A stretch of 64,000 nucleotides of DNA, from positions 133,176,001-133,240,000 of the forward strand of contig OZ024743.1 in assembly GCA_964016885.1 (NCBI GenBank), written 5' to 3'. Position numbers and translations under genes: made by a program. The notes under the pieces are model-generated. The model did no database searches and was not told the DNA's origin. It saw nothing but the letters and a program-made list of their open reading frames with translations. The DNA is from Eledone cirrhosa. Its lineage: Eukaryota. Below, in pieces: positions 10,601 to 62,739 of the stretch; position 1 is the first letter of the stretch; each line of letters opens with the position of its first letter.

Positions 10601-10700
10601 AAACACCAAACACCAAGCACCAAGCACCAAACACCAAACACCAAGCACCAAGCACCAAGCACCAAGCACTAAACACCATACACCAAGCACCAAGCACCAA
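4600..10700 (+). repeat. Diverged ~3.1-3.3 kb duplication (about 4.6-7.6 kb versus about 7.9-10.7 kb)
   Basis: Identical ORF translations at 5040..5249 and 8377..8586 (offset 3337). Near-identical ORF starts at 4618/7942 and 6494/9635 (offset 3141). The offset changes along the copy, which implies whole-unit indels. Confidence 0.75.
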
Positions 10701-13700
10701 TCACTAAACACTAAACACCAAGCACCAAGCACCAAACACAAACACCAAGCACCAAGTACCAAACTCCAAACACCAAACACCAAGCACCAAGCACCAAATC
10801 CCAAGCACCAAACACCATTCACCATAAAACAAACACCAAACACCAAGCATGAAGCACCAAGCACCAAATACCAATCACCAAGCACCAAAGAGCAAACACC
10901 AAGCCCCAAGCACCAAACACCAAACACCAAACACCAAACAGCAAACACTAAACACCAAACACCAAAGAGCAAACACCAAACACCAAATAGCAAACACCAA
11001 ACACCAACAAGGAAACACCAAACAGCAAACACCAAACAGCAAACGCCAAACAGCAAACACAAACACCAAACACCAAACACCAAACACCAAACACCAAGCA
11101 CCAAGCACAAAACACCAAGCACCAAGCGCCAAGCACCAAACACCAAACACCAAACACCAAACACCAAACACCAATCACCAAACACCAGACACCAAACACC
11201 AAACAGCAAACACCAAACACCAAACAGCAAACACCAAACACCAAACACCAAACAGCAAACACCAAACAGCAAACACCAAAGAGCAAACAGCAAACACCAA
11301 ACACCAAACACCAAGCACCAAGCAGCAAACACCAACACCAAGCAACAAGCACCAATCACCAAGCACCAAGCACTAAACACCAAACACCTAGCACCAAGCA
11401 CCAAGCACCAAACACCAAGCACCAAGCACCAAGCACCAAACACCAAGCACCAAAGACCAAGCCCCAAATACCAAGCACCAAGCACCAAACACCAATCACC
11501 AGGCACCAAGCACCAAACACCAAGAACCAAGCACCAAGCACTAAACACCAAACACCAAGCACCAAGCACCAAACACCAAGAACCAAGCACCAAGCGCAAA
11601 CACCGAACACCAAGCACCAAGCACCAAACACCAAGCACCAACCACCAAGCACCAAACACCAAGCACCAAGCACCAATCACCAAACACCAAGCACCAAGCA
11701 CCAAACACCAAACATCAAGCACCAAGCACCAAACACCAAACTACAAGCACCAAGCACCAAACACCAAATACCAAGCACCAACCACCAACCACCAAGCACC
11801 AAACACCAAGAACCAAGCACCAAGCACCAAACACCAAGCACCAAATACCAAGCACCAGACGCGAAGCACCAAGCACCAAGCACCAAAAACCAAGCACCAA
11901 GCTCCAAGCACCAAACACCAACCACCAAACAACAAACACCAAGCACCAAGCACCAAACACCAAGCACCAAGCGCCAAAAACCAAACAATAAGCACCAAGC
12001 ACCAAATACCAAGCACCAAGCACCAAGCACCAAGCACCAAACACCAAACACCAAACACCAAACAGCAAACAGCAAACAGCAAACACCAAACACCAAACAG
12101 CAAACGCCAAACATCAAACGCCAAACACCAAACGCCAAACAGCAAACGCCAAACACCAAACGCCAAACAGCAAGCGCCAAGCACGAAACGCCAAACACCA
12201 AGCACCAAGCACCAAACACCAAACACCTAGCACCAAGCACCAAACACCAAACACCAAGCACCAAGCACTAAACGCCAAACACCAAGCGCCAAGCACCAAG
12301 CACCAAACACCAAGCACCAAGCACCGAGCACCAGACACCAAACACCGAGCACCAAGCACCAAGCACCAAACACCAAGCCCCAAGCACCAAACACCAACCA
12401 GCAAACACCAAACACCAAACACTAAAAAGCAAACACCAAACAGCAAACACCAAACAGAAACACCAAACACCAAACACCAAACAGCAAACGCCAAGCACCA
12501 AACGCCAAAAAGCAAATGCCAAAACCCAAACGCCAAACAGCAAACGCCATACCCCAAACGCCAAACACCAAACACCGAACACCAAGCACCAAGCACCAAA
12601 CACCAAACACCAAGCACCAATCACCAAGCACCAAACACCAATCACCAAGCCCCAAGCACCAAACACCAAGCGTCAAGCACCAAACACCAAACACCAAGCA
12701 CCAAGCACCCAGAACCAAGCACCAAGCACGAAACACCAAACACCAAGCAACAAGCACCAAACACCAAATACCAAGCACCAAGCACCAAGCACCAAGCACC
12801 AAACAGCATACAGCAAGCACCGAGCACCAAACACCAAAAACCAATCACCAAGCACCAAAGAGCAAACACCTAACCCCAAGCACCAAACACCAAACACCAA
12901 ACACCAAGCACTAAACAGCAAACACCAACCAGCAAACACCAAACAGCAAACACCAAACAACAAACGCCAAACAGCAAACACAAACACCAAACACCAGGCA
13001 CCAAGCACCAAGAACCAAGCAGCAAACACCAAACACCAAGCACCAAGCACCAAACACCAAACACCAAGCACCAAGCACCAAACACCAAATACCAAGCACC
13101 AAGCACTAAACACCAAACACCAAACACCAAGCACCAAGCACCAAACACCAAAAACCAATCACCAAGCACCAAAGAGCAAACACCAAGCCCCAAGCCCCAA
13201 ACACAAAACACCAAATACCAAATAGCAAACACTTAACACCAAACACCAAACAGCAAACACAAAACAACAAATAGCAAATACCAAACAGCGAACACCAAAC
13301 ACCAAACAGCAAACACCAAACACCAACCAGGAAACACCAAATACCAAGCACCAAACACCAAGCACCAAGCCCCAAGCACCAAACACCAAGCACCAAGCAC
13401 CAAACACCAAGCACCAAGCACCAAGCACCATGCACCAAACACCAAGCACCAAGCACCAAACAGCAAACACCAAACAGCAAACACCAAACACCAAACACCA
13501 ACCAGCAAACACCAAACACCAAACACCAAACAGCAAACACCAAACAGCAAACACCAAACAGCAAACACCAAACACCAAACACCAAACACCAAACACCAAA
13601 CGCCAAAAAGTAAACGCCAAACCCCAAACGCCAAACAGCAAATGCCAAACCCCAAGCGCCAAACACCAAAGACCAAGCGCCAAGCAACAAACACCAAACA

Positions 13701-16700
13701 CCAAGCACCAAGCACCAAACACCAAACACCAAGCACCAAGTACCAAACACCAAACACCAAGCACCAAACACCAAACAACAAACGCCAAAAAGCAAACGCC
13801 AAACCCCAAACGTCAAACAGCAAACGCCAAGGACCAAACACCAAACACCAAGCGCCAAGCACCAAATACCAAACACCAAGCACCAAGCACCAAACACCAA
13901 ACACCAAGGACCAATCACCTAACACCAAGCACCAAGCGCCAAACACCAAAAACCAAACACCTAGCACCAAGCACCAAGCACCAAACACCAAGCACCAAGC
14001 CCCAAGCACCAAACAGCAAGCACCCAGCACCATACACCAAACACCAAGCACCAAGCACCCAGAACAAAGCACCAAGCACCAAACACCAAACACCAAGCTC
14101 CAAGCACCAAACACCAAACACCAAGCACCAAGCACCAAGCACCAAGCACCAAACACCAAACACCAAGCACCAAGCACCAAACACGAAGCACCAAGCGCCA
14201 AACACCAAACACCAAACACCTAGCACCAAGCACCAAGCACCGAACACCAAGCACCAAACACCAAGCACCAAGCACCAAGCACCAAGCACCAAGCACCAAA
14301 CACCAATCACCAAGCCCCAAGCACCAAACACCAAGCACCAAGCACCAAACACCAAACACCAAGCACCAAGCACCCAGAACCAAGCACCAAGCACCAAACA
14401 CCAAACACCAAGCACCAAGCACCAAACACCAAACACCAAGCACCAAGCACCAAGCACCAAGCACTAAACACCATACACCAAGCACCAAGCACCAATCACT
14501 AAACACTAAACACCAAGCACCAAGCACCAAACACAAACACCAAGCACCAAGTACCAAACTCCAAACACCAAACACCAAGCACCAAGCACCAAATCCCAAG
14601 CACCAAACACCATTCACCATAAAACAAACACCAAACACCAAGCATGAAGCACCAAGCACCAAATACCAATCACCAAGCACCAAAGAGCAAACACCAAGCC
14701 CCAAGCACCAAACACCAAACACCAAACACCAAACAGCAAACACTAAACACCAAACACCAAAGAGCAAACACCAAACACCAAATAGCAAACACCAAACACC
14801 AACAAGGAAACACCAAACAGCAAACACCAAACAGCAAACGCCAAACAGCAAACACAAACACCAAACACCAAACACCAAACACCAAACACCAAGCACCAAG
14901 CACAAAACACCAAGCACCAAGCGCCAAGCACCAAACACCAAACACCAAACACCAAACACCAAACACCAATCACCAAACACCAGACACCAAACACCAAACA
15001 GCAAACACCAAACACCAAACAGCAAACACCAAACACCAAACACCAAACAGCAAACACCAAACAGCAAACACCAAAGAGCAAACAGCAAACACCAAACACC
15101 AAACACCAAGCACCAAGCAGCAAACACCAACACCAAGCAACAAGCACCAATCACCAAGCACCAAGCACTAAACACCAAACACCTAGCACCAAGCACCAAG
15201 CACCAAACACCAAGCACCAAGCACCAAGCACCAAACACCAAGCACCAAAGACCAAGCCCCAAATACCAAGCACCAAGCACCAAACACCAATCACCAGGCA
15301 CCAAGCACCAAACACCAAGAACCAAGCACCAAGCACTAAACACCAAACACCAAGCACCAAGCACCAAACACCAAGAACCAAGCACCAAGCGCAAACACCG
15401 AACACCAAGCACCAAGCACCAAACACCAAGCACCAACCACCAAGCACCAAACACCAAGCACCAAGCACCAATCACCAAACACCAAGCACCAAGCACCAAA
15501 CACCAAACATCAAGCACCAAGCACCAAACACCAAACTACAAGCACCAAGCACCAAACACCAAATACCAAGCACCAACCACCAACCACCAAGCACCAAACA
15601 CCAAGAACCAAGCACCAAGCACCAAACACCAAGCACCAAATACCAAGCACCAGACGCGAAGCACCAAGCACCAAGCACCAAAAACCAAGCACCAAGCTCC
15701 AAGCACCAAACACCAACCACCAAACAACAAACACCAAGCACCAAGCACCAAACACCAAGCACCAAGCGCCAAAAACCAAACAATAAGCACCAAGCACCAA
15801 ATACCAAGCACCAAGCACCAAGCACCAAGCACCAAACACCAAACACCAAACACCAAACAGCAAACAGCAAACAGCAAACACCAAACACCAAACAGCAAAC
15901 GCCAAACATCAAACGCCAAACACCAAACGCCAAACAGCAAACGCCAAACACCAAACGCCAAACAGCAAGCGCCAAGCACGAAACGCCAAACACCAAGCAC
16001 CAAGCACCAAACACCAAACACCTAGCACCAAGCACCAAACACCAAACACCAAGCACCAAGCACTAAACGCCAAACACCAAGCGCCAAGCACCAAGCACCA
16101 AACACCAAGCACCAAGCACCGAGCACCAGACACCAAACACCGAGCACCAAGCACCAAGCACCAAACACCAAGCCCCAAGCACCAAACACCAACCAGCAAA
16201 CACCAAACACCAAACACTAAAAAGCAAACACCAAACAGCAAACACCAAACAGAAACACCAAACACCAAACACCAAACAGCAAACGCCAAGCACCAAACGC
16301 CAAAAAGCAAATGCCAAAACCCAAACGCCAAACAGCAAACGCCATACCCCAAACGCCAAACACCAAACACCGAACACCAAGCACCAAGCACCAAACACCA
16401 AACACCAAGCACCAATCACCAAGCACCAAACACCAATCACCAAGCCCCAAGCACCAAACACCAAGCGTCAAGCACCAAACACCAAACACCAAGCACCAAG
16501 CACCCAGAACCAAGCACCAAGCACGAAACACCAAACACCAAGCAACAAGCACCAAACACCAAATACCAAGCACCAAGCACCAAGCACCAAGCACCAAACA
16601 GCATACAGCAAGCACCGAGCACCAAACACCAAAAACCAATCACCAAGCACCAAAGAGCAAACACCTAACCCCAAGCACCAAACACCAAACACCAAACACC

Positions 16701-16936
16701 AAGCACTAAACAGCAAACACCAACCAGCAAACACCAAACAGCAAACACCAAACAACAAACGCCAAACAGCAAACACAAACACCAAACACCAGGCACCAAG
16801 CACCAAGAACCAAGCAGCAAACACCAAACACCAAGCACCAAGCACCAAACACCAAACACCAAGCACCAAGCACCAAACACCAAATACCAAGCACCAAGCA
16901 CTAAACACCAAACACCAAACACCAAGCACCAAGCAC
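9323..16936 (+). repeat. Apparently identical tandem duplication, period 3795 bp (2 copies; the second starts at ~13118)
   Basis: ORFs from 9364..10014 through 12642..12869 recur with the same translation at +3795 (for example 13159..13809, 13961..15520, 16311..16709). Boundaries were read by direct comparison. Confidence 0.95.
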
Positions 16937-19900
16937 TAAACACCAAACACCAAGCACCAAGCACCAAACACCAAACACCAAGCACCAAGTACCAAACTCC
17001 GAACACCAAACACCAGGCAACATGCACCAAGAACCAAGCAGCAAACACCAAACACCAAGCACCAAGCACCAAGCACCAAACACCAAACACCAAACACCAA
17101 GCACCAAGCACCAAACACCAAGCACCAAGCGCCAAAGACCAAACACCAAGCACCAAGCATGAAACACCAAGCACCAAGCACCGAGCACCAAACACCAAGT
17201 ACCAAGCACCAATCACCAAACACCAAGAACCAAGCAGCAAACACCAAACACCAAGCACCAAGCACCAAACACCAAACACCAAGCACCAAGCACCAAACAC
17301 CAAATACCAAGCACCCAGCACTAAACACCAAACACCAAGCACAAAGCACCAAGCATCATGCACCAAGCACCAAACACCAAGCACCAAGCACCAAGCACCA
17401 AGCACCAAACACAAAACACCAAGTACCAAGCACCTACCACAAAACACCAAACACCAAACACCAAGCACCAGACACCAAGCACCAAGCACTAAGCACCAAG
17501 CACCAAAAACCAAGCACCAAGCTCCAAGCACCAAACACCAAGCACCAAACACCAAACACCAAGCACCAAGCACCAATCACCAAGCACCAAGCACCAAATA
17601 CCAAGCACCAAGCAACAAGCACCAAACACCAAACACCAAACACCAAACACCAAACACCAAGCCCCAAGCACCAAACACAAAACACCAAGCACCAAGCACC
17701 AAACACCAAACACCAAGCACCAACCACCAAACACCAAATACCAAGCACCAAGCACCAGGCACCAAGCACCAAACACCAAGCACCAAGCACCAAGCACCAA
17801 ACACCAAGCACCAAACACCAAGCACCAGACACCAAGCACCAAGCACCAAACACCAAACAGCAAACACCAAACACCAAACAGCAAACACCAAACAGCAAAC
17901 ACCAAACACCAAACACCAACCAGCAAACACCAAGCACCAAGCACTAAACAGCAAACACCAAGCACCAAGCACCAAGCACCAAACACCAAGCACCAAGCAC
18001 CAAGCACCAAACACCAAGCACCAAGCACCAACCACCAAGCAGCAAGCACCAAGCACTAAGCACCAAACACCAAGCACCAAGCACCAAACACCAAACACCA
18101 AGCACCAATCACCAAACACCAAACACCAAGCACCAAGCACCAAACACCAAGCACCAAGCACCAAAGAGAAAAAAACCAAGCACCAAGCATCAAACACCAA
18201 ACACCAAACACCACACAGCAAACAGCAAACAGCAAACACCAAACAGCAAACACCAAATAGCAAACACCAAACAGCAAACACCAAACACCAAACAGCAAAC
18301 ACTAAACACCAAACACCAAGCACCAAGCACCAAGCACCAAACAACAAGCACCAAGCACCAAGCACCAAGCAACAAAAACCAAACACCAATCGCCAAACAC
18401 CAAACACCAAGCATCAAGCACCAAACACCAAACACCAAGCACCAAGCACCAAGCACCAAGCACCAAACACCAAGCACCAAGCACCAATCACCAAACACCA
18501 AACACCAGGCACCAAACACCAAACAGCAAACACCAATCACCAAACACCAAACACCAAACAGCAAACACCAATCACCAAACAACAAACACCAAACACCAAA
18601 CAGTAAACACCAAACACCAAACAGCAAACACCAAACACCAAACACCAAACAGCAAACACCAAACACCAAACACCAAACACCAAACACCAAACAAACAGCA
18701 AACAGCAAACACCAAACAGCAAACAGCAAACACCAAACACCAAACAACAAACGCCAAACAGCAAATGCCAGCCACCAGATGCCTAACAGCAAACGCCAAA
18801 CACCAAACGCCAAACATCAAACACCAAACACCAAACAGCAAACACCAAACACCAAACACCAAATAGCAAACACCAAAGAGCAAACACCAAACAACAAACA
18901 CCAAACAGCAAACACCAAACAGCAAACAGCAAACACCAAACACCAAACACCAAGCACCAAGCACCAAACACCAAGCACCAATCAACAAGCACCAATCACC
19001 AAGCACCAAGCACTAAACACCAAACACCAAGCACCAAGCACCAAGCACCAAACACCAAGCACAAAGCACCAAGCACCAAACGCCAAGCAACAACCACCAA
19101 ACACCAAGCACCAAGCACCAAGCACCAAACACCAAGCACCAAAGACCAAGCACCAAATACCAAGCACCAAGCACCAAACACCAATCACCAAGCACCAAGC
19201 ACCAAACACCAAGAACCAAGCACCAATCACTAAACACTAAACACCAAGCACCAAGCACCAAACACAAACACCAAGCACCAAGTACCAAACTCCAAACACC
19301 AAACACCAAGCACCAAGCACCAAATCCCAAGCACCAAACACCATGCACCATAAAACAAACACCAAACACCAAGCATGAAGCACCAAGCACCAAATACCAA
19401 ACACCAAACACCAAGCACCACATCAAACACCAAGCACCAAGCACCAATCGCCAAGCACCAAGCACCAAGCAACAATCACAAAGCACCAAACACCAAGCAC
19501 CAAGCACCAAGCACCAAACACCAAGCACCAAGCACCCAGCACCAAACACCAATCACCAAGCACCAAAGAGCAAACACCAAGCCCCAAGCACCAAACACCC
19601 AACACCAAACACCAAACATCAAACACCAATCACGAATCACCAAACAGCAAACAGCAAACACGAAACACCAAACACCAAGCACCAAGCACCAAACACCAAA
19701 CACCAAGCACTAAGCACCAAACACCAAATACCAAGCACCAAGCACTAAACACGAAACACCAAGCACCAAGCACCAAGCACCAAGCACCAAACACCAAGCA
19801 CCAAGCACCAAGCACCAAACACCAAGCACTAAGCACCAAACACCAAACACCAAGCACCAAACACCAAGCACCAAACACCAGACACCAAGCACCAAGCACC

Positions 19901-22900
19901 AGACACCAAGCACCAAGCACCAAACACCAAGCACCAAACACCAAGCACCAAGCACCAAACACCAAACATCAAGCACCAAGCACCAAACACCAAACACCAA
20001 GCACCAAGCACCAAGCACCAAGCACCAAGCACCAAACACAAAGCACCAAGCACCAAACAGCAAACACCAAGCACCAAACACCAAACACCAAGTACCAAGC
20101 ACCAAACACCAAACACCAAGCACCAAACACCAAGCACCAAGCCCCAAGCACCAAACACCAAGCACCAAGCACCAAACACCAAGCACCAAATACGAAACAG
20201 CATACACCAAACACCAAGCACCAAGCACCAAACAGCAAACACCAAACAGCAAACACCAAACACCAAACACCAACCGGCAAACACCAAACACCAAACACCA
20301 AACAGCAAACACCAAGCACCAAGCACCAAGCACCAAACACCAAGCACCAAACACCAAGCACCAGACACCAAGCACCAAGCACCAAACACCAAGCACCAAA
20401 CAACAAACACCAAGCACCAAGCACCAAACACCAAGCACCAAGCGCCAAACACCACACACCAAGCACCAAATACCAAGCACTAAACACCAAACACCAAGCA
20501 CCAAACACCAAGCACCAAACACCAAGCACCAGACACCAAGCACCAAGCACCAAGCACCAAGTACCAAACACCAACCACCAATCACCAAGCACCAAACACC
20601 AAGCACCAATCACCAAACACCAAGCACCAAGTGCCAAACACCAAACACCAAACACCTAGCACCAAGTACCAAGCACCAAACACCAAGCACCAAACACCAG
20701 GCACCAAGCACCAAGCACCAAACACCAAGCACCAAACACCAAGCACCAGACACCAAGCACCAAGCTCCAAGCACCAAGCACCAAAAACCAAGCACCAAGC
20801 TCCAAGCACCAAACACCAAGCACCAAACACCAAACACCAAGCACCAAGCACCAAACACCAAGCACCAAGCGCCAAACACCAAACACCAAGCACCAAGCAC
20901 CAAATACCAAGCACCAAGCATCAAGCACCAAACACCAAACACCAAACACCAAACACCAAACACCAAGCACCAAGCACCAAACACCAAAGACCAAGCACCA
21001 AGCACCAAACACCAAACACCAAGCACCAAGCACCAAACACCAAATACCAAGCACCAAACACCAAGCACCAAGCACCAAGCACCAAACACCAAGCACCAAA
21101 CACCAAGCACTAGACACCAAGCACCAAGCACCAAACACCAAGCACCAAACAACAAACACCAAGCACCAAGCACCAAACACCAAGCACCAAGCGCCAAACA
21201 CCACACACCAAGCACCAAATACCAAGCACCAAGCACCAAGCACCATACACCAAACACCAAGCACTAAGCACCAAACACCAAACAACAAGCACCAGGCACC
21301 AAGCTCCAAACACCAAACACCAAGCACCAAGCACCAAACACCAAACACCAAGCACGCAGCATCAAACACCAAACACCAAGCACCAAGCACCAAACACCAA
21401 GCACCAAACACCAAACAGCAAAAACCAAACACCAAACACCAAACAGCAAACAGCAAACACCAAACAGCAAACACCAAACAGCAAACACCAAACACCAAAC
21501 ACCAACCAGCAAATACCAAACACCAAACACCAAACGCCAAACATTAAACGCCAAACACCAAACGCCAAACAGCAAACACCAAACACCAAATGCCAACCAG
21601 CAAGCACCAAGCACCAAACACCAAGCACCAAGCACCAAACACCAAACACCAAGCACCAAGCACCAAACACCAAACACCAAGCACCAAGCACCAAGCACCA
21701 AACACCAAACACCAAACACCAAACAGCAAACACCAAACAGCAAACACCAAACAGCAAACACCAAATAGCAAACACCAAACAGCAAACAGCAAACACAAAA
21801 CACCAAACACCAAGCACCAAGCACCAAACACCAAGCACCAAGCAACAAGCACCAATCACCAAGCACCAAGCACTAAACACCAAACACCTAGGACCAAGCA
21901 CCAAGCACCAAACACCAAGCACCATGCACCAAGCAACAAACACCAAGCACCAAAGACCAAGCACCAAATACCAAGCACCAAGCACCAAACACCAATCACC
22001 AAGTACCAAGCACCAAGTCCCAAGCACCAAACACCAAGCACCAATCACCAAACACCAAACACCAAGCACCAAGCACCAAACACCATAAATCAAGCACCAA
22101 GCACCAAGCACCAAACACCAAACGCCAAACACAAAATACCAAGCACCAAGCACCAAACACCAAGCACCAAGCGCCAAAGACCAAACACCAAAAACCAAGC
22201 ACAAGACACCAAGCACCAAGCACCGAGCACCAAACACCAAGTACCAAGCACCAATCACCAAACACCAAGCACCAAGCACCAAACACCAAACACCAAGCAC
22301 CAAGCACCAAGCACCAAGCACCAAGCATCAAGCACCAAGCACCAAACACCAAGCACCAAGCACCAAGCACCAAACACAAAACAACAAGTACCAAGCACCA
22401 AACACTTAACACCAAACACCAAGCACCAAGCACCAAACACCAAACACCAAGCGCCCAAGCACCAGACACCAAGCACCAAGCACCAAGCACCAGACACTAA
22501 GCACCAAGCACCAAACACCAAGCACCAAACACCAAGCACCAAGCACCAAACACCAAACACCAAGCACCAAGCACTAAACACCAAACACCAAGCACTAAGC
22601 ACCAAGCACCAAGCACCAAGCACCAAGCACCAAGCACCAAACACAAAGCACCAAGCACCAAACAGCAAACACCAAGCACCAAACACCCAACCCCAAGCAC
22701 CAAGCACCAAGCACAAAACACCAAGCACCAAACACCAAGCACCAAGCCCCAAGCACCAAACACCAAGCACCAAGCACCAAACACCAAGCACCAAGCACCA
22801 AGCACCATACACCAAACACCAAGCACCAAGCACCAAACAGCAAACACCAAACAGCAAACACCAAACACAAAACACCAACCAGCAAACACCAAACACCAAG

Positions 22901-23716
22901 CACCAAACAGCAAACACCAAACAGCAAACACCAAACACAAAACACCAACCAGCAAACACCAAACACCAAGCACCAAACAGCAAACACCAAACAGCAAACA
23001 CCAAACACAAAACACCAAACAGCAAACACCAAACAGCAAACACCAAACAGCAAACGCCAAAAAGCAAACGCCAAACCCCAAACGCCAAACAGCAAATGCC
23101 AAAACCCAAACGCCAAACAGCAAACGCCAAGCGCCAAACACCAAACACCAAGCGCCAAGCACCAAACACCAAACACCAAGCACCAAACACCAAGTACCAA
23201 ACACCAAACACCAAGCACCAAACACCAAACAGCAAACACCAAAAAGCAAACACCAAGCCCCATACGCCAAACAGCAAATGCCAAACCCCAAACGCCAAAC
23301 AGCAAACGCCAATCACCAAACACCAAACACCAAGCGACAAGTACCAAACACCAAACACCAAGCACCAAGCACCAAACACCAAACACCAAGCACCAATCAC
23401 CAGACACCAAACACCAAGCACCAATCACCAAACACCAAGCACCAAGCGCCAAACACTAAACACCAAACACCTAGCACCAAGCACCAAGCACCAAACACCA
23501 AGCACCAAACACCAAGCACCAAGCACCAAGCACCAAACACCAAGCACCAAACACCAAGCACCAGACACCAAGCACCAAGCACCAAGCACCAAGCACCAAA
23601 AACCAAGCACCAAGCTCCAAGCACCAAACGCCAAGCACCAAACACCAAGCAGCACCAAGCACCAAACACCAAGCACCAAGCGCCAAACACCAAACACCAA
23701 GCACCAAGCACCAAAT

Positions 23717-23756
23717 ACCAAGCACCAAGCACCAAGCTTGGTGCTTGGTGCTTGGT
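23717..23756. repeat. Orientation-switch (inversion) junction; perfect 40-bp palindrome centred on AAGCTT (23734-23739)
   Basis: Sequence ACCAAGCACCAAGCACCAAG|CTTGGTGCTTGGTGCTTGGT has 20-bp arms and no spacer. The first mismatch is T23716 versus G23757. Confidence 0.97.
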
Positions 23757-24089
23757 GCTTGGTGTTTGGTGCTTGGTGCTTGGTGCTTGGTGTTTGGTGC
23801 TTGGTGCTTGGTGCTTGCTCTTTGGTGGTTGCTGTTTGGTGCTTGGTGTTTGGTGCTTGGTGCTTGGTGCTGGGTGGTTGGTGTTTGGTGCTTGGTGCTT
23901 GGTGTTTGGTGCTTGGTGCTTGGTGCTTGTTGTTTGGTGCTTGGTGCTTGGTCTTTGGTGCTTGGTGTTTGGTGTTTGGTGATTGGTGCTTGGTGCTTGG
24001 TGCTTGGTGTTTGGTGCTTGGTGCTTGGTGATTAGTGTTTGGTGCTTGGTGCTTGGGGTTTGGTGTTTTGTGCTTAGTGCTTGGTGTTT

Positions 24090-24545
24090 GGTGTTTGGTG
24101 TTTGCTGTTTGGTGTCTGCTTTTTGGTATTTGGTGTTTGCTGTATGGTGTTTGCTGTTTCGTATTTGGTGTTTGCTGTTTGGTGTTTGGTGTTTGGTGTT
24201 TGGTGCTTGGTGTTTGGTGCCTGGTGCTTGGTGTTTGGCGTTTGGTGTTTGGTGTTTGGTGCTTGGTGCCTGGTGCTTGTTGTTTGGTGTTTGGTACTTG
24301 GTGCTTGGTGTTTGGTGTTTGGTGTTTGCTGTTTGGTGTCTGCTTTTTGGTATTTGGTGTTTGCTGTATGGTGTTTGCTGTTTCGTATTTGGTGTTTGCT
24401 GTTTGGTGTTTGGTGTTTGGTGTTTGGTGCTTGGTGTTTGGTGCCTGGTGCTTGGTGCTTGGTGTTTGGTGTTTGGTGTTTGGTGCTTGGTGCCTGGTGC
24501 TTGTTGTTTGGTGTTTGGTACTTGGTGCTTGGTGTTTGGTGTTTG
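24090..24545 (-). repeat. Local 224-bp (32-unit) tandem duplication just right of the inversion
   Basis: GGTGTCTGCTTTTTGGTATTTGGTGTTTGCTGTATGG occurs at 24111 and 24335, and GGTAC recurs at the same 224-bp offset. Confidence 0.8.
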
Positions 24546-25079
24546 GTGCTTGGTGTCTGGTGTTTGGTGCTTGGTGTTTGGTGTTTGGTGCTTGGTGCTT
24601 GGTGTTGGTGTTTGGTGTTTGGTGCTTGGTGCTTGGTGTTTTGTGTTTGGTGCTTAGTGCTTGGTGTTTGGTGTTTGGTGCTTGGTGTTTGGTGTTTGGT
24701 GTTTGATGCTTGGTTTTTGCTGCTTGGTGCTTGGTGCTTGGTGCTTGGTGTTCTGTGTTTGGTGCTTGATGCTTGGTGCCTGGTGCTTGGTGCTTGGTGC
24801 TTGTTGTTTGGTGCTTGGTGCTTGGTGATTAGTGTTTGGTGCTTGGTGCTTGGTGTTTGGTGTTTGGTGTTTCGTGCTTGGTGTCTAGTGTTTGGGTTTT
24901 GGTGTTTGGTGCTTGGTGCTTGGTGTTTAGTGTTTGGTGCTTGGTGCTTGGTGTTTGGTGATTGGTGCTTGGTGTTTGGTGCTTGGTGCTTTGTGCTTGG
25001 TGTTTGGTGCTGGGTGCTTGGTGTTTGGTGCTTGGTGCTTGGTGTTTGGTGTTTGGTGCTTGGTACTTGGTGTTTGGTG

Positions 25080-28000
25080 TGTGATGCTTGGTGTTTGATG
25101 CTTGTTGCTTGGTGCTTGGTGTTTTGTGTTTGGTGTTTGGTGCTTGGTGTATGTACTTGGTGCTTGGTGCTTGGTGTTTGGTGCTTGGTTCTTGGTGTTT
25201 GGTGCTTGGTGCTTGGTGCTTGGTGTTTGGTGCTTGGTGCTTGGTGTTTGGTGCTTGGTGTTTGTTGTTTGGTGCTTGGTGTTTGGTGCTTGGTGCTTGG
25301 TGCTTGGTGTTAAGTGTTTGGTGCTTGGTGCTTGGTGTTTGGTGCTTCGTGCTTGGTGCTTGGTGTTTGGTGCATGGTGCTTGGTGTTTGGGGCTTGGTG
25401 CCTGGTGCTTTGTGTTTGGTGCTAGGTGCTTGGTGCTTGGTCTTTGGTGTTTGGTGCTTGGTGCTTGGTGTTTGGTGCTAGGTGTTTGGTGCTTGGTGTT
25501 CGGTGCTTGGTGCTTGGTGCTTGGTGCTTGGTGTTAGGTGTTTGGTGCTTGGTGCTTGGTGTTTGATGTTTGGTCCTTGGTGCTTGGTGTTTGGTGTTTG
25601 GTGCTTGGTGCTTGGTGTTTCGTGTTTGGTGCTTGCTGCTTGCTGCTTGGTGTTTGGTGCTTGGTGATTGGTGCTTGGTGTTTGGTGCTTGGTGCTTGGT
25701 GTTTGGTGTTTCGTGCTATGTGCTTGGTGCTTGGTGCTTGGTGTTTGGTGCTTGGTGCTTGGTGTTTGGTGTTTGGTGCTTGATGCTTGGGGCCTGGTGT
25801 TTGGTGCTTGGTGCTTGGTGCTTGGTGTTTGGTGCTTGGTGCTTGGTGCTTGGTGTTTGGTGTTTGGTGTTTGGTGCTTGGTGTTTTGTGCTTGGTGCTT
25901 GTTGCTGGGTGGTTGGTGTTTGGTGCTTGGTGCTTGGTGTTTGGTGCTTGGTGCTTGATGCTTATTGTTTGGTGATTGGTGCTTGGTGCTTGTTGCTTGG
26001 TGCTTGGTGTTTGGTGTTTGGTGTTTGGTGTTTGGTGCTTGGTGCTTGGTGCTTGGTGTTTGGTGCTTGGTGTTTGGTGCTTGGTGCTTGGTGCTTGGTT
26101 ATTTGTGTTTGGTGCTTGGTGCTTGGGGTTTGGTGTTTGGTGCTTGGTGTTTGGTGTTTGGTGTTTGTTGTATGGTGTTTGCTGTTTCGTGTTTGGTGTT
26201 TGCTGTTTGGTGTTTAATGCTTGGTGCTTGGTGCTTGGTGTTTGGTGCTTGGTGTTTGGTGTTTGGCGTTTGCTGTTTGCTGTTTGGTATTTGGTGCTTG
26301 CTGTTTGGTGCTTGGTGCTTGGTGCTGGTTGGTTGGTGTTTGGTGCTTGGTGTTTGGTGTTTGGTGCTTGGTGCTTGGTGCTTGTTGTTTGGTGCTTGGT
26401 GTTTGGTGTTTGGTGCTTGGTGCTTGGTGCTTGGTGTTTGGTGCTTGGTGCTTGGTGCTTGGTGTTTGGTGGTTGGTGCTTGGTGATTAGTGTTTGGTGC
26501 TTGATGCTTGGGGTTTGGTGTTTTGTGCTTAGTGCTTGGTGTTTGGTGTTTGCTGTTTGGTGTCTGCTTTTTGGTATTTGGTGTTTGCTGTTTCGTATTA
26601 GGTTTTTGCTGTTTGGTGTTTGGTGTTTGGTGTTTGTTGCTTGGTGTTTGGTGCTTGGTGCTTGGTGTTTGGCATTTGGTGCTTGGTGCTTGGTGTTTGG
26701 TGCTTGGTGCTTGGTGTTTGGTGTTTGGTGCTTGGTGTTTGGTGTTTGGTGCTTGGTACTTGGTGTTTGGTGTGTGAAGCTTGGTGATTGATGCTTGTTG
26801 CTTGGTGCTTGGTGTTTGCTGTTTGGTGTTTGGTGCTTGGTGTATGTACTTGGTGCTTGGTGCTTGGTTTTTGGTGCTTGGTTCTTGGTGTTTGGTGCTT
26901 GGTGCTTGGTGCTTGGTGTTTGGTGCTTGGTGCTTGGTGTTTGGTGCTTGGTGTTTGGTGTTTGGTGCTTGGTGTTTGGTGCTTGGTGCCTGTTGCTTGG
27001 TGTTAAGTGTTTGGTGCTTGGTGCTTGGTGTTTGGTGCTTCGTGCTTGGTGCTTGGTGTTTGGTGCATGGTGCTTGGTGTTTGGGGCTTGGTGCCTGGTG
27101 CTTTGTGTTTGGTGCTAGGTGCTTGGTGCTTGGTCTTTGGTGTTTGGTGCTTGGTGCTTGGTGTTTGGTGCTAGGTGTTTGGTGCTTGGTGTTCGGTGCT
27201 TGGTGCTTGGTGCTTGGTGCTTGGTGTTAGGTGTTTGGTGCTTGGTGCTTGGTGTTTGATGTTTGGTCCTTGGTGCTTGGTGTTTCGTGTTTGGTGCTTG
27301 CTGCTTGCTGCTTGGTGTTTGGTGCTTGGTGATTGGTGCTTGGTGCTTGGTGCTTGGTGCTTGGTGTTTGGTGCTTGGTGCTTGGTGTTTGGTGTTTGGT
27401 GCTTGGTGCTTGGGGCTTGGTGTTTGGTGCTTGGTGTTTGGTGCTTGGTGTTTGGTGCTTGGTGCTTGGTGCTTGGTGTTTGGTGTTTGGTGTTTGGTGC
27501 TTGGTGTTTTGTGCTTGGTGCTTGTTGCTGGGTGGTTGGTGTTTGGTGCTTGTTGCTTGGTGTTTGGTGCTTGGTGCTTGGTGCTTATTGTTTGGTGATT
27601 GGTGCTTGGTGCTTGGTGCTTGGTGTTTGGTGCTTGGTGCTTGGTGCTTGGTGTTTGGTGCTTGGTGCTTGGTGCTTGGTTATTAGTGTTTGGTGCTTGG
27701 TGCTTGGGGTTTGGTGTTTGGTGCTTGGTGTTTGGTGTTTGGTGTTTGCTGTATGGTGTTTGCTGTTTCGTGTTTGGTGTTTGCTGTTTGGTGTTTAATG
27801 CTTGGTGCTTGGTGCTCGGTGTTTGGTGCTTGGTGCTTGGTGTTTGGTGCTTGGTGCTTGGTGCTTGTTGTTTGGTGCTTGGTGCTTGGTCTTTGGTGCT
27901 TGGTGTTTGGTGTTTGGTGCTTGGTGCTTGGTGCTTGGTGTTTGGTGCTTGGTGCTTGGTGCTTGGTGTTTGGTGGTTGGTGCTTGGTGATTAGTGTTTG

Positions 28001-28150
28001 GTGCTTGATGCTTGGGGTTTGGTGTTTTGTGCTTAGTGCTTGGTGTTTGGTGTTTGCTGTTTGGTGTCTGCTTTTTGGTATTTGGTGTTTGCTGTAAGGT
28101 GTTTGCTGTTTCGTATTTGGTGTTTGCTGTTTGGTGTTTAGTGTTTGGTG
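25080..28150 (-). repeat. Older ~1.5-1.7 kb sub-duplication largely nested inside the 4431-bp unit
   Basis: ORFs 25088..25537 and 26781..27230 (offset 1693), 26221/27802 (1581) and 26508/28012 (1504) are similar but not identical. Confidence 0.75.
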
Positions 28151-31100
28151 TTTGGTGTTTGGTGCTTGGTGCTTGGTGCTTGGTGTTTAGTGTTTGGTGT
28201 TTGGTGCTTGGTGTTTGGTGCTTGGTGCTTGGTGCTGGGTGGTTGGTGTTTGGTGCTTGGTGCTTGGTGCTTGGTGTTTGGTGCTTGGTGCTTGGTGCTT
28301 GTTGTTTGGTGCTTGGTGCTTGGTGCTTGGTCTTTGGTGCTTGGAGTTTGGTGGTTGGTGCTTGGTGCTTGGTGTTTGGTGTTTGGTGTTTGCTGTTTGG
28401 TGTTTGCTGTTTGGTGTCTGCTTTTTGGTGTTTGGTGTTTGCTGTATGGTGTTTGCTGTTTCGTATTTGGTTTATGCTGTTTGGTGTTTGGTGTTTGTTG
28501 TTTGATGCTGCGTGCTTGGTGTTTGGTGTTTGGTGCTTTGTGCTTGGTGCTTGGTGTTTGGCATTTGGTGCTTGGTGCTTGGTGTTTGGTGCTTGGTGCT
28601 TGGTGCTTGGTGTTTGGTGTTTGGTGCTTGGTGCCTGGTGCTTGTTGTTTGGTGTTTGGTGCTTAGTGCTTGGTGTTTGGTGTTTGGTGCTTGGTGCTTG
28701 GTGGCTGGTGGTTGGTGCTTGGTGTTTGGTGTTTGGTGTTTGGTGCTTGGTGCTTGGTGCCTGGTGTTTGGTGCCTGGTGCTTGGTGCTTGTTGTTTGGT
28801 ATTTGGTGCTTGGTGTTTGGTGTTTGGTACTTGGTGCTTGGTGCTTGGTGCTTGGTGTTTGGTCCTTGGTGCTTGGTGCTTGGTCTTTGCTGCTTGGGGT
28901 TTGGTGTTTGGTGCTTGGTGCTTGGTGTTTGGTGCCTGGTGCTTGGTGCTTGTTGTTTGGTGTTTAATGCTTGGTGCTTGGTGCTTGGTGTTTGGTACTT
29001 GGTGCTTGGTGCTTGGTGTTTGGCATTTGCTGTTTGCTGTTTGGTGTTTGGTACTTGGTGCTTGGTGATTAGTGTTTGGTGCATGGTCCTTGGTGTTTGT
29101 TGTTTGGTGTTTGGTGCTTGTTGTTTGGTGCTTGGTGCTTGCTGTTTGGTGGTTGGTGCTTGGTGTTTGGTGTTTGGTGTTTGGTGCTTGGTGCTTGGTG
29201 TTTGGTCCTTGGTGCTTGGTGCTTGGTCTTTGCTGCTTGGGGTTTGGTGTTTGGTGCTTGGTGCTTGGTGCTTGGTGTTTGGTGCTTGGTGCTTGGTGCT
29301 TGGTGTTTGGTGTTTGGTGCTTGCTGCTTGGTGCTTGGTGCTTGGTGTTTGGTGATTGGTGCTTGGTGCTTGGTGTTTGGCGTTTGCTGTTTGCTGTTTG
29401 GTGTTTGGTGTTTGCTGTTTGCTGTTTGCTGTTTGGTGTTTGGTGCTTGGTGCTTGGTGGCTGGTGTTTGGTGCTTGGTGTTTGGATTTTGGTGCTTGGT
29501 GCTTGGTGCCTGGTGTTTCGTGCTTGGTGCTTGGTGCTTGGTGTTTGGTGTTTGGTGCTTGGTGTTTGGTGTTTGGTACTTGGTGCTTGGTGCTTGGTGC
29601 TTGGTGTTTGGTGCTTGGTGCTTGGTGATTGTTGTTTGATGCTGCGTGTCTTGGTGTTTGGTGTTTGGTGCTTGGTGCTTGGTGTTTGGTGTTTGGAGCT
29701 TGGTGCCTGGTGCTTGTTGTTTGGTGCCTGGTGCTTGTTTTTTGGTGTTTGGTGTTTGGTGCTTGGTGTTTGGTGCTTGGTGCTTGGTGCTTGGTGTTTG
29801 GTGCATGGTGCTTGGTGTTTGGGGCTTGGTGCCTGGTGCTTTGTGTTTGGTGCTAGGTGCTTGGTGCTTGGTCTTTGGTGTTTGGTGCTTGGTGCTTGGT
29901 GTTTGGTGCTAGGTGTTTGGTGCTTGGTGTTCGGTGCTTGGTGCTTGGTGCTTGGTGCTTGGTGTTAGGTGTTTGGTGCTTGGTGCTTGGTGTTTGATGT
30001 TTGGTCCTTGGTGCTTGGTGTTTGGTGTTTGGTGCTTGGTGCTTGGTGTTTCGTGTTTGGTGCTTGCTGCTTGCTGCTTGGTGTTTGGTGCTTGGTGATT
30101 GGTGCTTGGTGTTTGGTGCTTGGTGCTTGGTGTTTGGTGTTTCGTGCTATGTGCTTGGTGCTTGGTGCTTGGTGTTTGGTGCTTGGTGCTTGGTGTTTGG
30201 TGTTTGGTGCTTGATGCTTGGGGCCTGGTGTTTGGTGCTTGGTGCTTGGTGCTTGGTGTTTGGTGCTTGGTGCTTGGTGCTTGGTGTTTGGTGTTTGGTG
30301 TTTGGTGCTTGGTGTTTTGTGCTTGGTGCTTGTTGCTGGGTGGTTGGTGTTTGGTGCTTGGTGCTTGGTGTTTGGTGCTTGGTGCTTGATGCTTATTGTT
30401 TGGTGATTGGTGCTTGGTGCTTGTTGCTTGGTGCTTGGTGTTTGGTGTTTGGTGTTTGGTGTTTGGTGCTTGGTGCTTGGTGCTTGGTGTTTGGTGCTTG
30501 GTGTTTGGTGCTTGGTGCTTGGTGCTTGGTTATTTGTGTTTGGTGCTTGGTGCTTGGGGTTTGGTGTTTGGTGCTTGGTGTTTGGTGTTTGGTGTTTGTT
30601 GTATGGTGTTTGCTGTTTCGTGTTTGGTGTTTGCTGTTTGGTGTTTAATGCTTGGTGCTTGGTGCTTGGTGTTTGGTGCTTGGTGTTTGGTGTTTGGCGT
30701 TTGCTGTTTGCTGTTTGGTATTTGGTGCTTGCTGTTTGGTGCTTGGTGCTTGGTGCTGGTTGGTTGGTGTTTGGTGCTTGGTGCTTGGTGTTTGGTGCTT
30801 GGTGCTTGGTGCTTGTTGTTTGGTGCTTGGTGTTTGGTGTTTGGTGCTTGGTGCTTGGTGCTTGGTGTTTGGTGCTTGGTGCTTGGTGCTTGGTGTTTGG
30901 TGGTTGGTGCTTGGTGATTAGTGTTTGGTGCTTGATGCTTGGGGTTTGGTGTTTTGTGCTTAGTGCTTGGTGTTTGGTGTTTGCTGTTTGGTGTCTGCTT
31001 TTTGGTATTTGGTGTTTGCTGTTTCGTATTAGGTTTTTGCTGTTTGGTGTTTGGTGTTTGGTGTTTGTTGCTTGGTGTTTGGTGCTTGGTGCTTGGTGTT

Positions 31101-34100
31101 TGGCATTTGGTGCTTGGTGCTTGGTGTTTGGTGCTTGGTGCTTGGTGTTTGGTGTTTGGTGCTTGGTGTTTGGTGTTTGGTGCTTGGTACTTGGTGTTTG
31201 GTGTGTGAAGCTTGGTGATTGATGCTTGTTGCTTGGTGCTTGGTGTTTGCTGTTTGGTGTTTGGTGCTTGGTGTATGTACTTGGTGCTTGGTGCTTGGTT
31301 TTTGGTGCTTGGTTCTTGGTGTTTGGTGCTTGGTGCTTGGTGCTTGGTGTTTGGTGCTTGGTGCTTGGTGTTTGGTGCTTGGTGTTTGGTGTTTGGTGCT
31401 TGGTGTTTGGTGCTTGGTGCCTGTTGCTTGGTGTTAAGTGTTTGGTGCTTGGTGCTTGGTGTTTGGTGCTTCGTGCTTGGTGCTTGGTGTTTGGTGCATG
31501 GTGCTTGGTGTTTGGGGCTTGGTGCCTGGTGCTTTGTGTTTGGTGCTAGGTGCTTGGTGCTTGGTCTTTGGTGTTTGGTGCTTGGTGCTTGGTGTTTGGT
31601 GCTAGGTGTTTGGTGCTTGGTGTTCGGTGCTTGGTGCTTGGTGCTTGGTGCTTGGTGTTAGGTGTTTGGTGCTTGGTGCTTGGTGTTTGATGTTTGGTCC
31701 TTGGTGCTTGGTGTTTCGTGTTTGGTGCTTGCTGCTTGCTGCTTGGTGTTTGGTGCTTGGTGATTGGTGCTTGGTGCTTGGTGCTTGGTGCTTGGTGTTT
31801 GGTGCTTGGTGCTTGGTGTTTGGTGTTTGGTGCTTGGTGCTTGGGGCTTGGTGTTTGGTGCTTGGTGTTTGGTGCTTGGTGTTTGGTGCTTGGTGCTTGG
31901 TGCTTGGTGTTTGGTGTTTGGTGTTTGGTGCTTGGTGTTTTGTGCTTGGTGCTTGTTGCTGGGTGGTTGGTGTTTGGTGCTTGTTGCTTGGTGTTTGGTG
32001 CTTGGTGCTTGGTGCTTATTGTTTGGTGATTGGTGCTTGGTGCTTGGTGCTTGGTGTTTGGTGCTTGGTGCTTGGTGCTTGGTGTTTGGTGCTTGGTGCT
32101 TGGTGCTTGGTTATTAGTGTTTGGTGCTTGGTGCTTGGGGTTTGGTGTTTGGTGCTTGGTGTTTGGTGTTTGGTGTTTGCTGTATGGTGTTTGCTGTTTC
32201 GTGTTTGGTGTTTGCTGTTTGGTGTTTAATGCTTGGTGCTTGGTGCTCGGTGTTTGGTGCTTGGTGCTTGGTGTTTGGTGCTTGGTGCTTGGTGCTTGTT
32301 GTTTGGTGCTTGGTGCTTGGTCTTTGGTGCTTGGTGTTTGGTGTTTGGTGCTTGGTGCTTGGTGCTTGGTGTTTGGTGCTTGGTGCTTGGTGCTTGGTGT
32401 TTGGTGGTTGGTGCTTGGTGATTAGTGTTTGGTGCTTGATGCTTGGGGTTTGGTGTTTTGTGCTTAGTGCTTGGTGTTTGGTGTTTGCTGTTTGGTGTCT
32501 GCTTTTTGGTATTTGGTGTTTGCTGTAAGGTGTTTGCTGTTTCGTATTTGGTGTTTGCTGTTTGGTGTTTAGTGTTTGGTGTTTGGTGTTTGGTGCTTGG
32601 TGCTTGGTGCTTGGTGTTTAGTGTTTGGTGTTTGGTGCTTGGTGTTTGGTGCTTGGTGCTTGGTGCTGGGTGGTTGGTGTTTGGTGCTTGGTGCTTGGTG
32701 CTTGGTGTTTGGTGCTTGGTGCTTGGTGCTTGTTGTTTGGTGCTTGGTGCTTGGTGCTTGGTCTTTGGTGCTTGGAGTTTGGTGGTTGGTGCTTGGTGCT
32801 TGGTGTTTGGTGTTTGGTGTTTGCTGTTTGGTGTTTGCTGTTTGGTGTCTGCTTTTTGGTGTTTGGTGTTTGCTGTATGGTGTTTGCTGTTTCGTATTTG
32901 GTTTATGCTGTTTGGTGTTTGGTGTTTGTTGTTTGATGCTGCGTGCTTGGTGTTTGGTGTTTGGTGCTTTGTGCTTGGTGCTTGGTGTTTGGCATTTGGT
33001 GCTTGGTGCTTGGTGTTTGGTGCTTGGTGCTTGGTGCTTGGTGTTTGGTGTTTGGTGCTTGGTGCCTGGTGCTTGTTGTTTGGTGTTTGGTGCTTAGTGC
33101 TTGGTGTTTGGTGTTTGGTGCTTGGTGCTTGGTGGCTGGTGGTTGGTGCTTGGTGTTTGGTGTTTGGTGTTTGGTGCTTGGTGCTTGGTGCCTGGTGTTT
33201 GGTGCCTGGTGCTTGGTGCTTGTTGTTTGGTATTTGGTGCTTGGTGTTTGGTGTTTGGTACTTGGTGCTTGGTGCTTGGTGCTTGGTGTTTGGTCCTTGG
33301 TGCTTGGTGCTTGGTCTTTGCTGCTTGGGGTTTGGTGTTTGGTGCTTGGTGCTTGGTGTTTGGTGCCTGGTGCTTGGTGCTTGTTGTTTGGTGTTTAATG
33401 CTTGGTGCTTGGTGCTTGGTGTTTGGTACTTGGTGCTTGGTGCTTGGTGTTTGGCATTTGCTGTTTGCTGTTTGGTGTTTGGTACTTGGTGCTTGGTGAT
33501 TAGTGTTTGGTGCATGGTCCTTGGTGTTTGTTGTTTGGTGTTTGGTGCTTGTTGTTTGGTGCTTGGTGCTTGCTGTTTGGTGGTTGGTGCTTGGTGTTTG
33601 GTGTTTGGTGTTTGGTGCTTGGTGCTTGGTGTTTGGTCCTTGGTGCTTGGTGCTTGGTCTTTGCTGCTTGGGGTTTGGTGTTTGGTGCTTGGTGCTTGGT
33701 GCTTGGTGTTTGGTGCTTGGTGCTTGGTGCTTGGTGTTTGGTGTTTGGTGCTTGCTGCTTGGTGCTTGGTGCTTGGTGTTTGGTGATTGGTGCTTGGTGC
33801 TTGGTGTTTGGCGTTTGCTGTTTGCTGTTTGGTGTTTGGTGTTTGCTGTTTGCTGTTTGCTGTTTGGTGTTTGGTGCTTGGTGCTTGGTGGCTGGTGTTT
33901 GGTGCTTGGTGTTTGGATTTTGGTGCTTGGTGCTTGGTGCCTGGTGTTTCGTGCTTGGTGCTTGGTGCTTGGTGTTTGGTGTTTGGTGCTTGGTGTTTGG
34001 TGTTTGGTACTTGGTGCTTGGTGCTTGGTGCTTGGTGTTTGGTGCTTGGTGCTTGGTGATTGTTGTTTGATGCTGCGTGTCTTGGTGTTTGGTGTTTGGT

Positions 34101-34235
34101 GCTTGGTGCTTGGTGTTTGGTGTTTGGAGCTTGGTGCCTGGTGCTTGTTGTTTGGTGCCTGGTGCTTGTTTTTTGGTGTTTGGTGTTTGGTGCTTGGTGT
34201 TTGGTGCTTGGTGCTTGGTGCTTGGTGTTTGGTGC
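25349..34235 (-). repeat. Near-identical tandem duplication, period 4431 bp (exactly 633 x 7; the second copy starts at ~29780)
   Basis: ORFs from 25482 to 29646 recur at +4431 (29913 ... 34077). One visible substitution, T26353 versus C30784. Confidence 0.95.
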
Positions 34236-51800: not shown

Positions 51801-51900
51801 TGCTTGGTGTTTGGTGTTTGACGCTTGGTGTTTGATGCTTGTTGCTTGGTGCTTGGTGTTTTGTGTTTGGTGTTTGGTGCTTGGTGTATGTACTTGGTGC

Positions 51901-62600: not shown

Positions 62601-62739
62601 CTTGGTGCTTGGTGCTTCGTGTTTGGTGTTTGGTGTTTGGTGCTTGGTGTTTGGTGCTTGGTGCTTGGTGCTGGGTGGTTGGTGTTTGGTGCTTGGTGCT
62701 TGGTGTTTGGTGCTTGGTGCTTGGTGCTTGTTGTTTGGT
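55113..62739 (-). repeat. 2.9-kb near-identical direct repeat, 55113-58022 and 59830-62739 (offset 4717)
   Basis: ORFs at 55372, 56226, 56758, 57339 and 57724 recur at 60089, 60943, 61475, 62056 and 62441. Confidence 0.88.

What the first reader, a model, noticed from the sequence alone, without database searches (positions are those of the whole stretch)
23717..23756. Seamless strand-polarity switch that makes the array a giant quasi-palindrome
Seen: the array inverts with no spacer at CACCAAGC/GCTTGGTG. The two orientations share only the dinucleotide GC, which creates a perfect 40-bp palindrome. Because both arms carry the same heptamer, at least 23 kb on each side can pair imperfectly in any 7-bp register. 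The variant patterns either side are not mirror images (left has TACCAAG, CGCCAAA and a CAG insertion; right has CTTGCTC and GTTGCTG), so this is not a simple fold-back of one molecule. Inference: a real intra-array inversion joined through 2-bp microhomology or template switching, and a candidate cruciform, fragile site or domain boundary.
Basis: partly seen in the sequence, partly recalled or inferred. Interest (0 to 1): 0.75.

Follow-up and report, generated by a model that had tools for sequence, protein, structure and literature searches.

The report
Copied inversion scar in giant satellite
The strand flip in this 7-letter repeat DNA is in the assembled sequence as described, but it is one of eleven related copies of a single join inside a 14.5-million-base repeat block, so it is likely an old inversion scar carried along by large duplications rather than a functional site.

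Summary
Observation confirmed; interpretation half right. The window lies in a 14.5-14.65 Mb heptamer satellite (CACCAAG/CACCAAA) on contig C4. The join (perfect 40-bp palindrome, 2-bp GC overlap) has 11 related copies with the same two unlike arms: 9 intact, 1 with a central substitution, 1 with a ~730-bp central deletion. Ten pair with a second, ten-copy join, bounding a 105-256 kb inverted cassette of its own repeat subfamily. I count at least 31 flips; the 29 seamless ones trace to 7 founder joins, and only this one has AAGCTT. So: likely one microhomology-guided inversion, then passive megabase-scale duplication. The palindrome largely follows from GC being the only overlap between the unit and its reverse complement. 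It is no better conserved than its flanks (1/400 vs 3/4,420 substitutions), and 1 of 11 copies lost it, as 1 of 11 cassettes lacks the non-palindromic partner join. A read chimera is very unlikely; spanning reads were not tested; one 200-N gap lies 4.2 Mb away. Closest known: strand switches in human HSat3/beta-satellite and Tribolium macro-dyads. This scan reached the same reading earlier at sibling joins of this array.

The parts
1..23735 (+). A/C-rich heptamer arm ('X' subfamily, commonest higher-order period 3,795 bp); last 23.7 kb of a 163-kb inverted cassette that starts at join J2 (G000:C4:133,036,630, outside the window)
23717..23756 (.). Perfect 40-bp palindrome at join J1; predicted single-strand DNA hairpin -22.7 kcal/mol
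23736..23737 (.). GC overlap shared by both orientations (2-bp microhomology)
23738..64000 (-). Same heptamer on the opposite strand ('Y/P' subfamily, commonest higher-order periods 4,431 and 4,717 bp); T-rich in every sample up to C4:134.32 Mb
23650..23722 (+). Left-arm marker variants (CAG insertion, CGCCAAA, TACCAAG) that tie the copies of the join to one ancestor
23814..23834 (-). Right-arm marker variants; the exact 30-mer occurs only beside 9 copies of the join (a tenth with one change)

Best explanation
This is one of eleven related copies of a single strand-inversion join in a 14.5-Mb heptamer satellite, likely formed once by end joining or template switching at a 2-bp GC overlap and likely multiplied passively when megabase blocks of the array were duplicated. 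Shown: copy number, shared arms, the partner join J2, co-copied interior markers, the subfamily boundary. Inferred: (1) a block was placed in reverse between two joins (J2 and J1), which are not a clean reciprocal pair; (2) reversed polarity kept it out of direct-repeat exchange with its neighbours, so it evolved its own subfamily; (3) cassette plus flanks were duplicated about ten times, twice ending up reversed; (4) each copy has since drifted, changing length (105-256 kb). The palindrome is a by-product of the unit's sequence.
For: 9 exact copies of the 28-nt join, all on C4, reversed control 0; all have the same two unlike arms, 49-712 bp exact between copies, two in reverse; a tenth has one central substitution; an eleventh has a ~730-bp deletion over the centre with orthologous arms. 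Copies mostly differ by 0-4 substitutions per 600 bp, plus private indels and exchange points. J2 has 10 copies, each 105-256 kb from a J1 copy in matching orientation. All 31 matches of a ten-unit pure run lie inside 6 cassettes, starting 64-69 kb from J2 in 5 of 6; all 65 non-junction matches of a right-arm marker lie 43-137 kb from a J1 copy, beside 8 of 11. 17 of 17 samples inside cassettes are X-type (5 from the cassette used for training); 37 of 39 outside are Y/P-type (3 training), 1 X, 1 unclear. Microhomology of 2 bp or more is clear in 3 of 7 founder joins against 2.75% for random joins, P about 7e-4. No excess conservation: 1 substitution in 400 palindrome bases vs 3 in 4,420 flank bases, one copy's left flank left out after an indel. 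In humans, strand switches scale with array length and are read as by-products of expansion (10.64898/2026.07.22.740206, passages).
Against: The arms beside J1 are somewhat more complementary than random (P 0.04 for the 20-bp arm; 0.016 best register), which could reflect hairpin-templated correction; this is one event, picked for its palindrome. Ten of 11 copies keep the join, which selection would also give; the substitution test has little power (0.27 expected). J1 and J2 do not restore a native sequence when read as reciprocal breaks, so the first event is not fully reconstructed. Microhomology at J2, J5 and J7 is ambiguous (1-2 bp) and absent at J3. The subfamily result cannot tell insulation by polarity from growth out of a small seed.
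Confidence: 0.8

Rival explanations
1. The join is a hairpin-prone site that actively seeds the duplications and reversals of the array (fold-back in single-stranded DNA, or cruciform cleavage), so the cassette promotes its own spread.
For: Hairpin -22.7 kcal/mol for 40 nt and about -80 for 140 nt. One of 11 copies has an asymmetric deletion over the centre. A new join (J4) lies 35 kb from one copy, with an 89-bp exact mirror across a 287-bp spacer. In yeast single-stranded DNA, inverted repeats fold back unless heterology exceeds 25% (PMC10164571, abstract).
Against: The join sits inside the duplicated blocks, with both flanks copied intact, not at their ends. One cassette of 11 also lacks the non-palindromic J2. 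A cruciform costs 12.6 kcal/mol at 20-bp arms and 0.6-0.8 kcal/mol per further arm base against the duplex; by recalled supercoiling constants that needs unconstrained supercoiling of roughly -0.03 or stronger. The human genome has about 180,000 palindromes over 40 bp allowing 4 mismatches (PMC7999016, passage). The J4 mirror falls to 84-96% beyond about 100 bp.
Confidence: 0.08
2. The join is a selected structural element (macro-dyad centre, protein-binding loop, chromatin boundary or source of double-stranded RNA) in pericentromeric heterochromatin.
For: It marks a sharp subfamily boundary. Conserved inversion sites are proposed to be structural in Tribolium (PMC13081366, abstract and passages). 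An AT-rich 25-28 bp satellite, possibly the family that an earlier unchecked note ties to centromeres, interrupts this array twice.
Against: Not more conserved than flanks; altered or lost in 2 of 11 copies; 6 of 7 founder joins lack the palindrome; about 2 flips per Mb against thousands of inversion sites in T. madens; all flips found are on C4. No RNA run was among the 20 holders listed (a DNA-directed search, so weak). The Tribolium authors state that function is unproven.
Confidence: 0.07
3. Assembly artefact: a fold-back chimeric read or scaffolding join, or copy number inflated by both haplotypes being placed in tandem.
For: A 200-N gap lies inside the array at C4:137.411 Mb. Join positions repeat with a ~2.65-2.9 Mb offset around it, so two of the copies could be alleles. 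Spanning reads were not examined.
Against: No N in the window or in 133.00-133.05 Mb. Arms come from different subfamilies, unlike a fold-back read. Eleven copies carry private substitutions, indels and one deletion. The suspected allele pairs are no closer than other pairs.
Confidence: 0.04
4. Recurrent site-specific inversion at AAGCTT (recombinase- or nuclease-driven hot spot).
For: Nine joins read AAGCTT; GC stands at the centre of four founder joins.
Against: All AAGCTT joins share both flanks, so they are one event; GC is the only overlap the unit offers.
Confidence: 0.01

Closest known systems
Strand switches in human HSat3B5 (chr9) and beta-satellite arrays (10.1101/2021.07.12.452052, passages; 10.64898/2026.07.22.740206, passages)
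   Same: Multi-megabase short-unit satellite with many internal inversion breakpoints; read as by-products of expansion; one human haplotype shows an array inversion later duplicated.
   Different: Unrelated unit; at least 31 flips here against over 200 in the human arrays; here most flips trace to two founder joins bounding one cassette. The passages read do not trace the human switches to founders; supplements were not seen and may.
Tribolium macro-dyad symmetries with conserved inversion sites (PMC13081366, abstract and passages; PMC12581902, abstract)
   Same: Opposed sub-arrays meeting at a few conserved join types (98-99% alike there, over 99% here), a predicted hairpin, and a second satellite interspersed.
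   Different: Tribolium has thousands of sites on all chromosomes, dyads up to 75 kb and degenerate subunits at the joins; here about 2 flips per Mb on one contig, blocks of 35 kb to over 1 Mb, a spacer-free join, and arms of different subfamilies.
Palindrome and quasi-palindrome fragile sites (PMC7999016, passages; PMC10164571, abstract)
   Same: Spacer-free centre, stable predicted hairpin, one copy with an asymmetric central deletion.
   Different: Perfect part only 40 bp, arms about 80-88% complementary beyond; no evidence of breakage; 10 of 11 copies keep the join.

Membership tests
Intra-array satellite inversion breakpoint (strand switch) | Same satellite on opposite strands either side of the point | tested here: met
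Intra-array satellite inversion breakpoint (strand switch) | Not a gap or fold-back read in the assembly | tested here: met
   No N in the window, unlike arms, 11 diverged copies
Intra-array satellite inversion breakpoint (strand switch) | Confirmed by spanning raw reads | not testable with these tools
   The read-laying tool does not take long repeats; one search shows only that three runs hold 66-69% of 61 sampled words, not whether the join is among them
Simple reciprocal two-break inversion | Both joins restore native sequence when the segment is turned back | tested here: not met
   Native continuations of the arms do not match the partner join's ends
Tribolium-type macro-dyad | Conserved, repeated inversion sites | tested here: met
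   J1 x11, J2 x10, J6 x3, J3 x2
Tribolium-type macro-dyad | Dense, roughly symmetric dyads on all chromosomes | tested here: not met
   All flips found are on C4; flanking blocks unequal (163 kb vs about 1.1 Mb here)
Tribolium-type macro-dyad | (Peri)centromeric location | not testable with these tools
   No CENP-A, Hi-C or FISH data; array at 128.9-143.4 Mb of a 379-Mb contig
Cruciform-forming fragile palindrome | Spacer-free inverted repeat with stable hairpin | tested here: met
Cruciform-forming fragile palindrome | Excess rearrangement at the centre | tested here: inconclusive
   1 of 11 copies deleted across the centre; 1 of 11 cassettes also lacks J2
Cruciform-forming fragile palindrome | Extrusion or breakage in vivo | not testable with these tools
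   Only computed energies
Site-specific recombination site | Independent events reuse the same core | tested here: not met
   All AAGCTT joins descend from one event; other founders differ

The most novel reading that the evidence does not exclude
The J2-J1 inverted cassette is a self-propagating structural module: its spacer-free hairpin triggers the fold-backs and megabase duplications that built the array, while reversed polarity walls the cassette off from homogenisation. It would be a macro-dyad-like architecture outside Tribolium with an active role in satellite growth, in what earlier unchecked notes call an octopod genome.
Probability: 0.08. Interest if true: 0.55.

Novelty: new member of a known kind. 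Interest (0 to 1): 0.2.

Why it matters
Modestly. Eleven copies of one join with unique flanks act as landmarks in an otherwise unmappable array. They show how it grew, give a natural replicate series for how a short palindrome decays, and suggest that an inversion can fence off a repeat subfamily. They also caution that 'conserved inversion sites' in satellites can arise by copying alone, which bears on the Tribolium proposal. I found no paper on this heptamer satellite, but the kind of feature is well described.

Tried and rejected
Fold-back of one molecule: rejected, arms unlike. Recurrent AAGCTT hot spot: rejected. Clean reciprocal inversion J1/J2: not met. Last 20 bp of the right arm copied from the left arm: first suggested by 14 paralogues, but 21 closer paralogues are compatible with a native origin; unresolved. 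General hairpin-like symmetry at joins: 1 of 7 tested. Telomere fusion: the unit is not the TTAGGG-like repeat seen on C2. Literature: the motif search returned primer and microsatellite papers (listing only); the cephalopod search gave no study of this satellite (listing only); one search returned 0; seen as listings apart from the papers cited. No supplements were read. The 'near' look-up of earlier findings was empty. The genome tool holds no relatives, so no cross-species test. A 39-mer count (22,114 matches) implies 20-31 Mb of this satellite by two density estimates, more than C4 plus the small C2 block; I did not locate the rest, if it exists.

Full report
Observation. The window is one satellite from end to end: CACCAAG/CACCAAA on the + strand to 23735, and the reverse complement from 23736. 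The join has no spacer, the two orientations share GC at 23736-23737, and 23717-23756 is the only perfect palindrome with arms of 5 bp or more. The marker variants are as described. The arms match at 833 of 947 aligned bases over the last kilobase and share no 100-mer although each is internally repetitive, so this is not a fold-back read.

How much is chance. GC is the longest word common to CACCAAG and its reverse complement, so a join on that overlap always starts a palindrome centred on AAGCTT. In 100,000 random joins of this kind between the two arms, the perfect arm had median 7 bp and reached 20 bp in 4.1%. Shifted by one unit, the arms differ at 3 of 70 bases (1.6% of 1,500 best-register random pairs); the 6 other joins tested were unremarkable. 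The palindrome is thus mostly a property of the unit, with a small excess that I cannot explain further.

Genome context. The window is G000:C4:133,176,001-133,240,000 of a 3.0-Gb genome; C4 is 379 Mb. Samples put the array between 128.80-128.90 and 143.40-143.45 Mb. Earlier unchecked notes call the genome octopod; I did not test this. A 28-nt pattern across the join matches 9 places, all on C4. All 9 have the same left and the same right arm, 49-712 bp exact between copies, two in reverse orientation. A looser pattern gave 13 A-to-T places. One (138.931 Mb) is the same join with one central substitution; one (131.693 Mb) is the same join lacking about 80 bp of the left and 649 bp of the right arm, with orthologous sequence beyond. 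That makes 11 descendants of one event, J1.

The partner join. Bracketing and reading 50 kb found the opposite flip for this copy at 133,036,630. This join, J2, has 10 copies with shared flanks, each 105-256 kb from a J1 copy in matching orientation; the J1 copy at 142.89 Mb has none. Interior markers travel with the cassette: all 31 matches of a ten-unit pure run lie in 6 cassettes, starting 64-69 kb from J2 in 5, and all 65 non-junction matches of a right-arm marker lie 43-137 kb from a J1 copy, beside 8 of the 11. By 35-mer content, 17 of 17 samples inside cassettes are X-type (5 from the training cassette) and 37 of 39 outside are Y/P-type (3 training; 1 X, 1 unclear). The join is therefore a real boundary between repeat subfamilies. 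That polarity blocks homogenisation is my inference; growth from a small seed fits equally well.

All flips. A-to-T: J1 x11, J6 x3 (129.212, 130.017, 134.981 Mb), and two through islands of an AT-rich 25-28 bp satellite (137.41 Mb, beside a 200-N gap; 140.03-140.15 Mb, bracketed only). T-to-A: J2 x10, J3 x2, J4, J5, J7. The total is 31, a minimum because it rests on patterns and on about a hundred sampled places. The 29 seamless flips come from 7 founders. Judged against native paralogues, microhomology is GC at J1 and J6, at least GT at J4, 1-2 bp and ambiguous at J2, J5 and J7, and none at J3; random joins reach 2 bp in 2.75%, so 3 of 7 gives P about 7e-4. J1 and J2 are not a clean reciprocal pair: native continuations of the arms do not match the partner ends. 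J4 has an 89-bp exact mirror across a 287-bp spacer, but identity falls to 84-96% beyond, so fold-back there is only partly supported.

Function tests. Over 10 copies the palindrome has 1 substitution in 400 bases, the adjoining flanks 3 in 4,420 (one copy's left flank left out after an indel); 0.27 would be expected, so there is no sign of constraint, with little power. One of 11 copies lost the centre, and one of 11 cassettes lacks J2. The 40-mer folds at -22.7 kcal/mol as single-stranded DNA. A cruciform costs 12.6 kcal/mol against the duplex at 20-bp arms and 0.6-0.8 per further arm base; with recalled supercoiling constants that is affordable only under strong unconstrained negative supercoiling. 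A hairpin in single-stranded DNA remains plausible (PMC10164571, abstract). Both flanks are copied intact with the join, so it lies inside the duplicated blocks, not at their ends.

Artefact check. There is no N in the window or at 133.00-133.05 Mb, and copies carry private changes, mostly 0-4 substitutions per 600 bp. The gap at 137.411 Mb and a repeat of join positions at a 2.65-2.9 Mb offset leave open that two copies are alleles, although those pairs are no closer than others. Spanning reads were not examined. Three runs hold 66-69% of 61 sampled words, which does not test the join.

Known kin. Human HSat3B5 and beta-satellite arrays hold over 200 inversion breakpoints (10.1101/2021.07.12.452052, passages); their number scales with array length and they are read as by-products of expansion (10.64898/2026.07.22.740206, passages). 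Tribolium macro-dyads have thousands of conserved inversion sites with unproven function (PMC13081366, abstract and passages; PMC12581902, abstract). This array works like the former and shares conserved joins with the latter, but fails the Tribolium features of density and presence on all chromosomes. No paper on this satellite turned up (listings only). Supplements were not read and may hold founder analyses of the human switches.

Earlier notes. My reading was written down before I saw them. Three notes on sibling joins of this array give the same reading; my own counts of 11 copies and 31 flips match theirs, which is not independent evidence. One supplied the Tribolium papers.

Verdict. 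Real in the assembly, ordinary in kind: a copied inversion scar. Interest 0.2; new member of a known kind.

Noticed in passing
G000:C4:137,411,370-137,412,175 (L171): 200-N assembly gap followed by about 600 bp of an AT-rich 25-28 bp satellite that runs into the heptamer through a shared CTTGG.
   Followed up: partly
G000:C4 about 140.03-140.15 Mb (L061, L081, L158): Island of the same AT-rich satellite plus non-satellite DNA inside the heptamer array, at a polarity change.
   Followed up: partly
G000:C2:250.80-251.20 Mb (L095-L100): The AT-rich satellite encloses a heptamer block under 90 kb (Y/P-type) and is followed by an interstitial telomere-like TAACCC array.
   Followed up: partly
G000:C4 135.9-141.0 Mb: Join positions repeat at a 2.65-2.9 Mb offset: a tandem duplication, or two haplotypes scaffolded in a row.
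   Followed up: partly
G000:C4:134,466,800 (L010): Join J4 has an 89-bp exact mirror across a 287-bp spacer and lies between a forward and a reversed copy of J1.
   Followed up: partly
G000:C4:131,693,280 (L111): Copy of J1 with about 730 bp deleted asymmetrically over the palindrome centre.
   Followed up: yes
G000:C4 142.89-143.2 Mb (L113, L084): The reversed cassette has no J2 and seems to pass into Y/P-type repeats without a flip.
   Followed up: no
window 23738-23813: The eleven right-arm units next to the join carry none of the variants seen in most of 21 native paralogues: an ancestral state, or correction by pairing with the left arm.
   Followed up: partly
whole genome: 22,114 matches of a 39-mer imply 20-31 Mb of this satellite, more than the C4 array and the C2 block; other arrays may exist, or density varies.
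   Followed up: no
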